Positions 15,701 to 18,700 of a stretch of DNA of 64,000 nucleotides are shown one piece after another; within the stretch, counting starts at the first letter, position 1; every line of letters begins with the position of its first letter. A program made the position numbers. This DNA comes from Escherichia coli. Its GTDB lineage: Bacteria; Pseudomonadota; Gammaproteobacteria; Enterobacterales; Enterobacteriaceae. Location: the NCBI RefSeq assembly GCF_003790525.1, contig NZ_CP033635.1. One strand, written 5' to 3'.

Positions 15701-18700
15701 AGCCTGCGGGCAAAGTGCTGCCTTATGACCGCTTCGAAACCGATAAATGGGATGTCATGGATGCCGATGTTCGCTTCAAAGGGCGGCGCATTGAACATGG
15801 CAGTAGCCTGCCGATTAGCGATCTTTCTACTCATATCATCCTCAAAAATGCTGACCTGCGCCTGCAACCGCTGAAATTTGGCATGGCGGGCGGCAGCATT
15901 GCGGCGAATATTCATCTGGAAGGCGATAAAAAGCCGATGCAGGGGCGGGCAGATATTCAGGCTCGTCGACTGAAACTGAAAGAACTGATGCCCGATGTAG
16001 AACTGATGCAGAAGACGCTGGGGGAAATGAACGGTGACGCGGAACTACGCGGTAGCGGTAACTCGGTGGCGGCGCTTTTAGGCAACAGTAACGGCAACCT
16101 GAAACTGTTGATGAATGACGGGCTGGTGAGCCGCAACCTGATGGAGATTGTCGGGCTGAATGTCGGCAACTACATTGTCGGTGCGATATTTGGTGACGAT
16201 GAGGTGCGGGTGAACTGCGCGGCGGCGAATCTTGATATTGCCAACGGCGTGGCGCGCCCGCAGATCTTTGCTTTCGATACGGAGAACGCGTTGATTAACG
16301 TTACCGGCACGGCAAGTTTTGCTTCGGAACAGCTGGATTTGACTATCGATCCAGAAAGTAAAGGGATTCGGATTATCACACTGCGTTCGCCGCTGTATGT
16401 GCGTGGGACGTTTAAAAATCCGCAGGCTGGGGTAAAAGCCGGACCGTTGATTGCTCGCGGAGCCGTCGCGGCGGCACTGGCAACGCTGGTTACGCCAGCG
16501 GCGGCGTTACTGGCGCTGATCTCTCCTTCCGAAGGGGAGGCTAATCAGTGTCGGACGATTTTGTCGCAGATGAAGAAGTGATGATAATTGCCGGATGTCT
16601 GACATCCGGCAATTAAACAGATTTAGATTGTTGGCAAAGTGTGCTTTGTTCATGCCGGATGCGGCGTGAACGCCTCCGGCTTACAAATCCTTGCTAATTC
16701 AATATATTGTATGGAAATTCTGGCCTGATAAGCGTAGCGCATCAGGCTTTTCACTCTTATTACAACGACTGATGTCGCGTCTCATGGGTCAGCAGCAGGG
16801 CGATTAACGTCAAGCCAGCCATCGCCGCCAGATATAGCCCCACCGCACCTAACCCGTAGTTAGTCTGCAACCAGGCTGCGATATACGGCGCAACGGAAGC
16901 CCCGAGAATCGACGATACGTTGTAAGAGAACGATGCTCCGGTGTAACGCACTTCTGTCGGGAACAGCTCTGGTAACAGCGCGCCCATCGGACCGAAGGTC
17001 AGCCCCATCAGACTTAACCCCAGCAGCAGGAAGGCAAAAACCAGAATCGGGTTGCCAGAACCGAGCAACGGGTTAAAGGCGAACAGCGCGAACAGGATGA
17101 TCAGCGTGGTGATGATTACCATGCTTTTACGGCGACCAAAGGCATCAGCCAGTAATCCGGCGACTGGCACCATCACGCCAAAACCAATAACTGCCATCAT
17201 CAGCATCCACAACACTTCGTTACGCGGCAGGCCAAGCCCAACTGGCGCGGCGGCGGTACTAAAGGTCATAGAGTAGACCGTCATGATGTAAAACAGCGTA
17301 TAGGTTGCCAGCATAATGAACGTACCCAGTACGGTTACGCGAACATGTTTGGTCAGCAGCGTACCCAGCGGGATCTTCACCTGTTTTTTCGCTTTAGCGA
17401 CTTTCTCAAACACCGGCGACTCATGCAGCGACACGCGAACATACAGGCCGATAATGACCAGCACCGCCGAGAAGATAAACGGCACGCGCCAGCCCCAGCT
17501 CATAAACTGCTCGTCGGTCAGTAGCCAGGAAAGCAGCAAGAAAGTGCCGTTGGCAAAGAAGAAGCCAATCGGTGCGCCCAGCTGCGGGAAGGAGCCATAC
17601 AGTGCACGTTTGCGCGGTGGGGCGTTTTCAGTCGCCAGCAGCGCCGCGCCGCCCCATTCGCCGCCTAAACCCAGACCCTGACCAAATCGAGCCAGCGCCA
17701 GCAGCAGCGGGGCGAAAATACCAATCGTGGCATAGCCCGGCAGCAGACCAATCACCACGGTCGAAATCCCCATCGTTAGCAACGAGGCGACCAGCGTCGC
17801 TTTACGCCCAACGCGATCGCCAAAATGACCAAAAACGGCAGAGCCAATGGGGCGCGCGACGAAGGCGATGGCGAAGGTGGCAAGCGACTGTAGCGTTGCT
17901 GCCGTAGGATCACCCTGCGGGAAGAAGATATGCGGAAACACAATAACGGCCGCAGTGGCGTAAATGTAAAAGTCGAAGAACTCAATGGCCGTGCCAATGA
18001 GAGAGGCGACAAGGACTTTATTACGCGAGTTGATCGGCGTGTATTCTTGCTCGTGGTCGAGTGTTGTGGCTGTTGCTTGCATAATCTTTTCTTATTTTTT
18101 GGCTAACGAATAGCCATATTACGCACAGCAAAAGTGATATTTCAATGTGTAACAAATCGCGGAAATGGTCAAAAATCAGGCAAAAAGGGGATAATGTTTA
18201 GGCCAGTGATTTTTCTTCTATGAAATGCTTCACATAATTTTATAAATAGTGGATAAAACTGGTTTCAGGTTAAATAAAAGTTACCAACTGGATTTATATG
18301 CTGGGGTTATGAGTTGGAATGAAATTGTTTGCTCCTGAAGAGATGTAGTTTCAGGTGGTTATGTGCATGTCATTGCCTGGTCTCTGGCTGGCTTGTACCC
18401 CCTCACCCTAATCCTCTCCCCGAAGGGGCGAGGGGATCGACCGTGCGTTTATCAGGCATTATAAACCAATGAATTACCGCTGCGTTTTCCCCGGCATTCG
18501 CGGGTCGTCTTTATATTCGGCGGTGGCAATCCACGCCGCGCAAAACAGCGTCAAACGGGCGAAGAAGTAGAAAAATGCCATCAGCCCCAGCACGGAACCA
18601 AATGCTGCGCCAGAGGGGGATTTCATCAGCGATGGCAGGGTGTAAGTCATCACAATTTTAATCACTTCAAAACCAATAGCAGCCAGAAATGTTCCGCGAA

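What the first reader, a model, noticed from the sequence alone, without database searches (positions are those of the whole stretch)
18398..18437. G/C-rich imperfect palindrome in the yhjE-yhjD intergenic region
ccctcaccctaatcctctccccgaaggggcgagggga is a GGGG/CCCC-rich quasi-palindrome unlike the surrounding sequence. It resembles a small dispersed intergenic repeat class rather than a terminator.
Basis: seen in the sequence. Interest (0 to 1): 0.2.

Follow-up and report, generated by a model that had tools for sequence, protein, structure and literature searches.

The report
BoxC repeat copy after yhjD
The G/C-rich quasi-palindrome is one copy of BoxC, a small dispersed E. coli repeat already published under several names; here it sits just after the yhjD stop codon, where most E. 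coli strains carry a pair of REP repeats, so it is ordinary and already explained.

Summary

- **Identity.** On the minus strand the element reads CCCCTCGCCCC-TTC-GGGGAGAGGA-TTA-GGGTGAGGGGG. This is the three-block core of the E. coli BoxC repeat, also published as PIT, TMECO type A and HPG1. Family homology extends into the flanks (about window 18385-18457).
- **Copy number.** Similar sequences occur a median of 18 times per genome in 5425 of 5426 complete E. coli genomes.
- **A point mutation.** This copy has one derived G-to-A change (T at 18412). It breaks the published strict search pattern and the four-G-tract quadruplex pattern. That is why the copy is missing from the published list of seven copies in strain SMS-3-5.
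- **A two-allele site.** 600 genomes carry BoxC here and 4818 carry a REP pair. All five Escherichia reference loci examined, which include E. albertii and E. whittamii, carry REPs, so the BoxC allele is derived.
- **The wider slot.** In all 79 enterobacterial loci where it could be scored, the slot after the yhjD stop folds into a stem-loop of some kind.
- **Not a terminator.** No T-tract follows the hairpin, and sister copies lie inside operons.

The element is most likely a passive, structure-prone repeat that gives the yhjD transcript a stable 3' hairpin. Interest is low.

The parts
18425..18435 (-). Block 1 of the BoxC core (CCCCTCGCCCC), the C-rich arm.
   Evidence: Pattern match. Aligns with block 1 of all 11 type-A paralogs. 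Pairs with block 3 in the predicted RNA hairpin.
18422..18424 (-). Loop 1 (TTC).
   Evidence: The same TTC loop occurs in the closest paralog, 3' of trmJ.
18412..18421 (-). Block 2 (GGGGAGAGGA). Its last base (window 18412; T on the plus strand, A on the G-rich strand) is a derived G-to-A substitution.
   Evidence: All 11 paralogs aligned have G at this position. 95 genomes carry the unmutated version at this same locus. The change abolishes the strict TMECO pattern and the three-tetrad G4 pattern.
18409..18411 (-). Loop 2 (TTA), which defines the 'type A' / HPG1 subtype.
   Evidence: Holder et al. Table 1 and text. Kaplan et al. HPG1 sequence.
18398..18408 (-). Block 3 (GGGTGAGGGGG), the third G-rich strand of the published triplex model.
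   Evidence: Triplex model from Holder et al..
18436..18457 (-). Conserved 5' flank of the BoxC unit, in G-strand orientation (GCCTGATAAACGCACGGTCGAT).
   Evidence: Paralogs share (G)ATAAA-GCGCACGGACGGTC. BLAST matches to paralogs reach 18457.
18385..18397 (-). Conserved 3' flank of the BoxC unit (TACAAGCCAGCCA). The family consensus is AACAGGCCAGCAC.
18367..18473 (.). Allele-specific 107-nt segment that contains the BoxC unit. In K-12 and 4818 genomes the same slot holds a REP pair (BIME) of similar length.
   Evidence: Alignments. Allele counts.
18474..18476 (-). yhjD stop codon (TAA). The allele-specific segment starts at the very next base, and the core starts 38 nt further on.

Best explanation
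This is a solo, full-length, type-A copy of the BoxC repeat of E. coli. The same family has been published as PIT element, TMECO intrastrand-triplex motif and HPG1 G-quadruplex-hairpin motif.

**Shown.**
- It is one of about 10-30 copies per genome.
- It lies in the 3' untranslated region of yhjD, on the sense strand.
- It belongs to a derived allele, found in 600 of 5426 genomes, that replaced the ancestral REP pair in exactly the same slot.
- It later acquired a G-to-A change in the middle block.

**Inferred.**
- As DNA it is a passive, structure-prone repeat with no sequence-specific regulatory job at this locus.
- Any yhjD transcript that reads past the stop codon gains a stable 3' hairpin (block 1 paired with block 3, about -26 kcal/mol). 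This is the same kind of structure that a local hairpin or REPs provide in that slot in other strains and genera. That would explain why the swap is tolerated.
- It is not an intrinsic terminator.
- At family level, the ability of the G-rich strand to fold back on itself as a hairpin or triplex when single-stranded probably underlies the local rearrangement-proneness reported for these loci. The replacement of the REP pair seen here is one example.
For: **Family identity.**
- The core fits CCCTCNCCC-N3-6-GGGNGAGG-N4-GGGNGAGGG.
- It differs from MG1655 copies 7, 11 and 15 in Table 1 of Holder et al. at 2 of 36 positions.
- The flanks align with 11 paralogs from five strains.

**Dispersed repeat.** Median 18 places per genome, range 1-33.

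**Polymorphism and polarity.**
- 600 genomes carry the BoxC allele and 4818 carry the REP allele.
- REPs are present at this site in the two E. coli-labelled reference genomes, Escherichia sp. MOD1-EC7003, E. whittamii and E. albertii, and REP-like sequence in Salmonella and Citrobacter.

**Mutation is secondary.** 95 genomes carry the canonical base at the same locus, against 468 with the exact window 66-mer.

**Hairpin.** -26.5 kcal/mol, z = -2.7.

**Slot always structured.** All 79 species loci that could be scored fold to a stem-loop right after the yhjD stop. The local hairpin shows compensatory changes in 5 of 8 pairs.

**Not a terminator.**
- No T-tract and no hit in the terminator scan.
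- Copies lie 7 and 17 nt after stop codons inside nrdD-nrdG and eutG-eutH.
- Published assays were negative for terminator and promoter activity.
Against: - No experiment or transcript data were available for this locus, so the 3'-hairpin role is an inference.
- Holder et al. report no strand or orientation bias of the family relative to genes, and report that copies lie more often upstream than downstream of ORFs. This argues against a general RNA-level role.
- The DNA-level hairpin is weak by nearest-neighbour energies (-9.2 kcal/mol, z = -0.9). Triplex formation was not detected in vivo by DMS footprinting.
- The way the segment replaced the REP pair is not explained. There is no target duplication and no intermediate allele, and 16-18 nt at each end of the segment match nothing.
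Confidence: 0.85

Rival explanations
1. The element is kept by selection as a 3'-UTR stem-loop. In this reading it protects yhjD mRNA from 3'-to-5' exonucleases, or marks the transcript's 3' end, and so replaces the REP pair as its functional equivalent.
For: - It is on the sense strand, 38 nt after the stop, and folds stably as RNA.
- The slot holds a stem-loop in all 79 species loci scored, with covariation in the local hairpin.
- Sister copies sit 6-19 nt after stop codons of nrdD, eutG and, in other genera, yhjE.
- REPs have an established mRNA-stabilising role (general knowledge, not tested here).
Against: - The family shows no orientation bias and lies more often upstream of genes.
- Repeats may simply accumulate where hairpins are harmless.
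- No RNA data were available.
- The G-to-A mutation weakens the block 1:block 2 pairing (8 instead of 9 Watson-Crick pairs) yet is the commoner sub-allele, which suggests no strong constraint on that pairing.
Confidence: 0.25
2. It is the rho-independent terminator of yhjD.
For: A GC-rich hairpin lies shortly after a stop codon.
Against: - No T-run follows the hairpin on either strand, and the terminator scan finds 0 sites.
- Copies lie inside operons.
- PIT elements showed no terminator activity in published assays.
Confidence: 0.03
3. It is a G-quadruplex / triplex / hairpin switch that regulates the downstream gene yhjE.
For: - The family consensus forms a triplex and G4-like structures in vitro.
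- The element lies upstream of yhjE, and the G-rich strand is the non-template strand, which is exposed during transcription.
Against: - This copy has lost the second G3 tract, so it no longer fits a three-tetrad G4.
- It lies 316 nt upstream of the yhjE start codon and is absent from about 89% of strains.
- In vivo footprinting found no triplex, and no regulatory effect has been published.
Confidence: 0.04
4. It is a chance G/C-rich palindrome unique to this spot.
For: None beyond its small size.
Against: 0.00 matches are expected by chance, and there are tens of thousands of homologous places in E. coli genomes.
Confidence: 0.005

Closest known systems
BoxC repeat of E. coli (Bergler 1992 and Bachellier et al., as cited in PMC4666352 and PMC2267715). 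Also published as PIT element (Hoyne and Maher) and as TMECO type A 'mm' intrastrand-triplex motif (Holder et al. 2015, PMC4666352).
   Same: - Three-block core with TTA in the second loop and the G in block 1 (CCCTCGCCC) that Holder et al. count as one mismatched base triplet.
- Conserved flanks, intergenic position, multi-copy dispersed distribution, and presence/absence polymorphism between strains.
   Different: - One extra G-to-A change in block 2 makes it fail the published strict consensus, so it is absent from the published SMS-3-5 list.
- It is solo, not paired with an inverted type-B copy.
- It sits where other strains have REPs.
HPG1 'G-quadruplex-hairpin-duplex switch' motif GGGAGAGGGTTAGGGTGAGGG (Kaplan et al. 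2016, PMC5100583).
   Same: The same sequence family seen through a G4 search: an upstream C-rich tract that can form a hairpin with the G-rich part.
   Different: The second G-tract here is GGA, not GGG, so the four-tract G4 rule is not met. In that paper's terms it would be a 'degenerate HPGQ'.
REP / BIME (PU) elements.
   Same: - The same niche: a GC-rich imperfect palindrome in 3' UTRs just after stop codons, multi-copy, and variable between strains.
- A REP pair occupies this very slot in 4818 genomes, and two REPs follow the yhjE stop in this window.
   Different: There is no GCC(G/T)GATG...CATC(C/A)GGC palindrome in the element. The sequence family is different, it has a three-block rather than two-arm architecture, and no associated transposase (RAYT) is known for BoxC.

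Membership tests
BoxC / PIT / TMECO | Homology to the family core: C-rich block, loop, and two G-rich blocks separated by a 3-nt loop. | tested here: met
   The relaxed three-block pattern matches at 18400-18434 (-) against 0.00 expected. 34 of 36 positions are identical to Table 1 copies 7, 11 and 15. The core is aligned with 11 paralogs.
BoxC / PIT / TMECO | The strict published search consensus CCCTCNCCC-N3-6-GGGNGAGGG-N3-GGGNGAGGG. | tested here: not met
   It fails by one base (block 2 ends GGA). This is an operational search pattern, not a definition. The authors themselves describe 'mutated TMECO' copies, and 95 genomes carry the unmutated, pattern-satisfying version at this same locus. 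The miss therefore reflects a derived point mutation in a true family member.
BoxC / PIT / TMECO | Conserved flanks that extend the unit to about 50-60 bp (BoxC is given as 56 bp, or 50 bp in Petrillo et al.). | tested here: met
   Paralog matches span window 18387-18457. The flank consensus GCGCACGGACGGTC ... AACAGGCCAGCAC is recognisable in this copy.
BoxC / PIT / TMECO | Dispersed, multi-copy and intergenic. | tested here: met
   Median 18 places per genome, 89,998 of 90,050 places on chromosomes. This copy lies between yhjD and yhjE.
BoxC / PIT / TMECO | Forms an intrastrand purine-motif triplex as single-stranded DNA in vitro. | not testable with these tools
   Shown by CD and NMR for consensus oligonucleotides only. 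The folding tools here do not model triplexes. The G-to-A change should cost the triplet next to loop 2 (inference).
HPG1 G-quadruplex motif | Four G-tracts of at least 3 G with short loops. | tested here: not met
   The G4 regular expression finds nothing in the window copy but does match the canonical sub-allele.
REP / BIME | The GCC(G/T)GATG ... CATC(C/A)GGC imperfect palindrome. | tested here: not met
   It is absent from 18367-18473 and present in the K-12 and outgroup alleles of the same slot.
Intrinsic (rho-independent) terminator | A GC-rich hairpin immediately followed by a T/U run. | tested here: not met
   0 terminator-like sites in 18000-18600. The sequence after the stem is TACAAGCC (- strand) or TCGACCG (+ strand).
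Any Rfam RNA family | A covariance-model match at or near the gathering score. | tested here: not met
   The best overlap is Antizyme_FSE at 18.6 bits against a gathering score of 40, E = 0.42, which is spurious.

The most novel reading that the evidence does not exclude
The like-for-like replacement of a REP pair by a BoxC unit directly after the yhjD stop codon could reflect more than tolerance. The converse pattern exists after the yhjE stop: REPs in this window, BoxC cores in other genera. Under this reading the two repeat families would compete for, or be targeted to, the same hairpin-bearing 3'-UTR slots by a shared mechanism. Candidate mechanisms are hairpin-directed templated repair or gene conversion at stalled forks, or a single-strand transposase that recognises such hairpins. 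That would give the first handle on how BoxC, which has no known mobilising enzyme, spreads.
Probability: 0.08. Interest if true: 0.45.

Novelty: already known. Interest (0 to 1): 0.15.

Why it matters
It matters little. The element class has been described since the early 1990s and has been re-described three times. Its copies have been catalogued across E. coli strains, and its function remains unknown despite direct tests.

Three modest points are added here.

- **A missed copy.** This copy is missed by the published strict consensus because of one point mutation. The locus exists in three states: REP pair, canonical BoxC, and G-to-A BoxC.
- **A natural comparison set.** Those three states could be used to test triplex, G4 and hairpin ideas without engineering.
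- **Interchangeable occupants.** A local hairpin, REPs and BoxC occupy the same 'just after the stop codon' slots in the yhj cluster. This fits the view that these repeats persist where a stem-loop is harmless or useful.

Tried and rejected
- **Rfam.** The permissive scan of 17900-18700 gave only spurious sub-threshold hits.
- **Second copy or inverted partner.** Searching the 64-kb window found none at up to 3 mismatches.
- **Terminator or promoter.** The scan found no terminator, and only two weak promoter-like sites far from the element.
- **Phage origin.** Only 3 weak hits in 50,697 phage records. IMG/VR contigs do carry the bare core, but with unrelated flanks.
- **Plasmid origin.** The hits are mostly chromosome-sized records or other genera, with no link to this locus.
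- **Donor for the whole 107-nt segment.** No other E. coli locus covers more than window 18387-18457. None of 80 yhjD loci from other species has BoxC after yhjD.
- **A half-REP beside the core.** I considered that the flank GCCTGATAAACGC is a remnant half-REP and that BoxC inserted into a REP loop. I rejected this as unsupported. Only this copy and the trmJ copy share that flank, and the other flank bases belong to the BoxC consensus.
- **Published locus list.** I tried to check whether the canonical sub-allele is among the 63 loci of Holder et al. The supplement text did not settle it.

Full report
**1. Observation**

The window is identical to E. coli SMS-3-5 (NC_010498.1) over the yhjD-yhjE spacer. 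RefSeq annotation confirms yhjE (window 16760-18082, minus strand), yhjD (18474-19487, minus) and rcdB/yhjC.

The quoted string lies at 18400-18436, and the G/C-rich run spans 18398-18437. The exact 23-mer and a degenerate three-block pattern each occur once in the 64-kb window, with 0.00 expected in shuffles.

**2. What it is**

On the minus strand, which is the sense strand of yhjD and yhjE, the element reads CCCCTCGCCCC-TTC-GGGGAGAGGA-TTA-GGGTGAGGGGG. It has one C-rich block and two G-rich blocks, so it is not a simple two-arm palindrome.

This is the architecture of the E. coli repeat first called BoxC. It was later re-described twice:
- as the PIT or 'TMECO' intrastrand-triplex motif, consensus CCCTCNCCC-N3-6-GGGNGAGGG-N3-GGGNGAGGG, with 23 copies in MG1655 (Holder et al. 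2015, PMC4666352);
- as HPG1, a 'G-quadruplex-hairpin-duplex switch', GGGAGAGGGTTAGGGTGAGGG (Kaplan et al. 2016, PMC5100583).

Petrillo et al. list BoxC as 50 bp with 22 copies in their own search, against 56 bp and 32 copies in the earlier literature (PMC2267715).

The window copy is a 'type A mm' copy. It has TTA in loop 2 and the G in block 1 (CCCTCGCCC) that Holder et al. count as one mismatched base triplet. It differs from MG1655 copies 7, 11 and 15 at 2 of 36 positions.

A 66-nt query around the element finds a median of 18 places per genome (range 1-33) in 5425 of 5426 complete E. coli genomes, almost all chromosomal.

I fetched eleven type-A paralogs: five from five other strains and six from SMS-3-5 itself. 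They show that homology extends beyond the core. The G-strand consensus is about (G)ATAAA-GCGCACGGACGGTC-core-AACAGGCCAGCAC. The window copy carries both flanks, so family homology runs from about 18385 to 18457.

The closest paralog lies 3' of trmJ. It matches at 54 of 59 nt, with the same TTC loop and a shared flank GCC(T/A)GATAAA(C/T)GCACGG.

Rfam has no family for the element.

**3. A derived point mutation**

All eleven paralogs have G where this copy has A on the G-strand (T at window 18412 on the plus strand). The change has three effects:
- It makes the copy fail the strict TMECO consensus.
- It destroys the second of the four G3 tracts needed for a three-tetrad quadruplex.
- It leaves the block 1:block 3 hairpin intact.

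Accordingly, the supplement of Holder et al. lists seven TMECOs in SMS-3-5, and none is at this position (record about 3,895,049-3,895,088).

A 'repaired' 66-mer with C at 18412 is found exactly in 95 genomes. In strain AR_0372 I checked that this match lies between yhjE and yhjD. The window's own 66-mer is exact in 468 genomes. The mutation therefore arose after the element arrived at this locus.

**4. The locus is a two-allele polymorphism**

| State of the yhjD-yhjE spacer | Genomes (of 5426) |
|---|---|
| Window's version (BoxC) | 600 |
| K-12 version (REP pair) | 4818 |

The two versions differ over one 107-nt segment, window 18367-18473. It starts at the base after the yhjD stop codon and ends at GCACATAACC. 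In K-12 the same slot holds a pair of inverted REP elements (a BIME) of nearly the same length.

Five Escherichia reference loci were examined: two labelled E. coli, Escherichia sp. MOD1-EC7003, E. whittamii and E. albertii. All carry the REP pair. Salmonella and many Citrobacter species also have REP-like palindromes there. The REP state is therefore ancestral in Escherichia, and the BoxC allele is derived within E. coli.

No target-site duplication, residual REP or intermediate allele was seen. The outer 16-18 nt at each end of the segment match neither family. How the replacement happened is unexplained.

**5. Context of the slot**

In all 79 enterobacterial yhjD loci that could be scored, the first roughly 55 nt after the stop fold into a GC-rich stem-loop:
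- 18 loci have REP-type palindromes.
- Most of the remaining 61 have a local hairpin, CGGGCTGAA-loop-TTCAGCCCG. On an alignment of 39 species, 5 of its 8 pairs show compensatory double changes.

None of these loci has BoxC after yhjD. Conversely, the slot after the yhjE stop holds BoxC-like cores 6-19 nt from the stop in Enterobacter, Pseudocitrobacter and one E. coli-labelled genome. In this window that slot holds two REPs.

In SMS-3-5, other BoxC copies lie 7 nt after the nrdD stop (before nrdG) and 17 nt after the eutG stop (before eutH).

A local hairpin, REP and BoxC are thus interchangeable occupants of 'just after the stop codon' positions.

**6. How it most likely works**

*Shown.*
- The yhjD-sense RNA of the core folds into a stable hairpin with block 1 paired to block 3: -26.5 kcal/mol, z = -2.7, and 82% of the ensemble.
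- The REP allele gives -52 kcal/mol over its 129 nt.
- No T-run follows the stem on either strand, and the terminator scan finds nothing.

*From the literature.*
- The consensus oligonucleotide forms a purine-motif triplex in vitro.
- In duplex DNA, and in vivo by DMS footprinting, no triplex was detected.
- PIT elements showed no promoter or terminator activity.
- TMECO loci are more rearranged between strains than control loci.

*Inferred.*
- At this locus the element is a passive, structure-prone repeat.
- Its arrival was tolerated because it keeps a stem-loop at the 3' end of yhjD.
- The REP-to-BoxC swap is one more case of the instability reported for these loci.

GC skew is positive on the window's plus strand throughout. 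By the usual E. coli rule this makes the plus strand the leading strand. The G-rich strand of the element would then be the leading-strand template, and also the non-template strand of yhjD transcription. On that reasoning, transient single-strandedness of the G-rich strand is more likely during transcription than at the replication fork. This is inference.

**7. Rivals**

| Rival | Probability | Main reason |
|---|---|---|
| Selected role as a 3'-UTR stabiliser hairpin | about 0.25 | Plausible but untested. The slot analysis favours it. The lack of orientation bias in the family argues against it. |
| Intrinsic terminator | 0.03 | No T-tract follows the hairpin, copies lie inside operons, and published assays were negative. 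|
| G4/triplex switch regulating yhjE | 0.04 | The lost G-tract, the 316-nt distance to the yhjE start codon, and absence from about 89% of strains all argue against it. |
| Chance palindrome | below 0.01 | Excluded by the chance tests and the copy number. |

**8. Novelty and verdict**

The element class is already known, and this is simply one more, slightly degenerate, copy. The locus-level details are small additions: the three allelic states, the ancestral REP pair, and the always-structured slot. Interest is 0.15.

**Side observations**

- The bare core occurs in at least 120 IMG/VR contigs with G+C of 0.34-0.74 and unrelated flanks.
- It also occurs on plasmids of Klebsiella, Sinorhizobium, Azospirillum, Aeromonas and Rhizobium.
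- It is almost absent from GenBank phages.
- This agrees with the published cross-phylum distribution, which remains unexplained.

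Noticed in passing
window 18412: The BoxC allele has two sub-alleles. T (this window) is exact over a 66-mer in 468 genomes, and the canonical C is exact in 95 genomes (for example AR_0372). 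The T variant loses the strict triplex consensus and the G4 pattern but keeps the hairpin. This is a natural mutant series.
   Followed up: yes
window 18340-18366: A second variable patch lies next to the element. K-12, E. albertii and others have about 20 extra bp here (GCTGAAGAGGCTCTGGGGAC on the plus strand). The short form seen in the window is shared with one REP-bearing reference genome (L009).
   Followed up: partly
window 18477-18479 (last codon of yhjD): The final codon of yhjD varies between lineages: CGG (Arg) in the window and in E. albertii, CCT (Pro) in K-12, and AAT and CAT in two other Escherichia genomes. The protein length of 337 aa is unchanged between the window and K-12.
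   Followed up: no
L013-L085, first ~50 nt after the yhjD stop (e.g. L013:3030-3079): A conserved hairpin CGGGCTGAA-loop-TTCAGCCCG follows the yhjD stop in most of the loci without a REP, across Enterobacter, Klebsiella, Kosakonia, Lelliottia, Raoultella, Kluyvera and others. 5 of its 8 pairs show compensatory changes, and no clear T-tract follows it. Its function is unknown.
   Followed up: partly
window 16582-16759; L008:4749-4980, L015:4630-4792, L052:4627-4659 and others: The slot after the yhjE stop holds two REPs in the window. In Enterobacter, Pseudocitrobacter, Phytobacter and one E. coli-labelled genome it holds BoxC-like cores 6-19 nt after the stop. This is the converse of the yhjD slot.
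   Followed up: partly
L003 (E. coli GE3, 3' of trmJ): The closest paralog of the window copy (54 of 59 nt, same TTC loop) lies downstream of trmJ. That locus is itself presence/absence polymorphic: only 1433 of 5426 genomes cover the full region.
   Followed up: partly
L091 (eutG-eutH) and L092 (nrdD-nrdG) of SMS-3-5: BoxC copies lie inside operons, 17 nt and 7 nt after the stop codon of the upstream gene. They therefore cannot be efficient terminators.
   Followed up: yes
G+C ranges from 0.34 to 0.74, the flanks are unrelated, and one 43-kb contig carries seven copies over three loci. I did not check whether these contigs are truly viral or include host flanks.
   Followed up: no
window 18329-18472 (+): A 47-codon ORF with a TTG start runs through the element. 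It lies almost wholly in the allele-specific segment and is most likely spurious.
   Followed up: no
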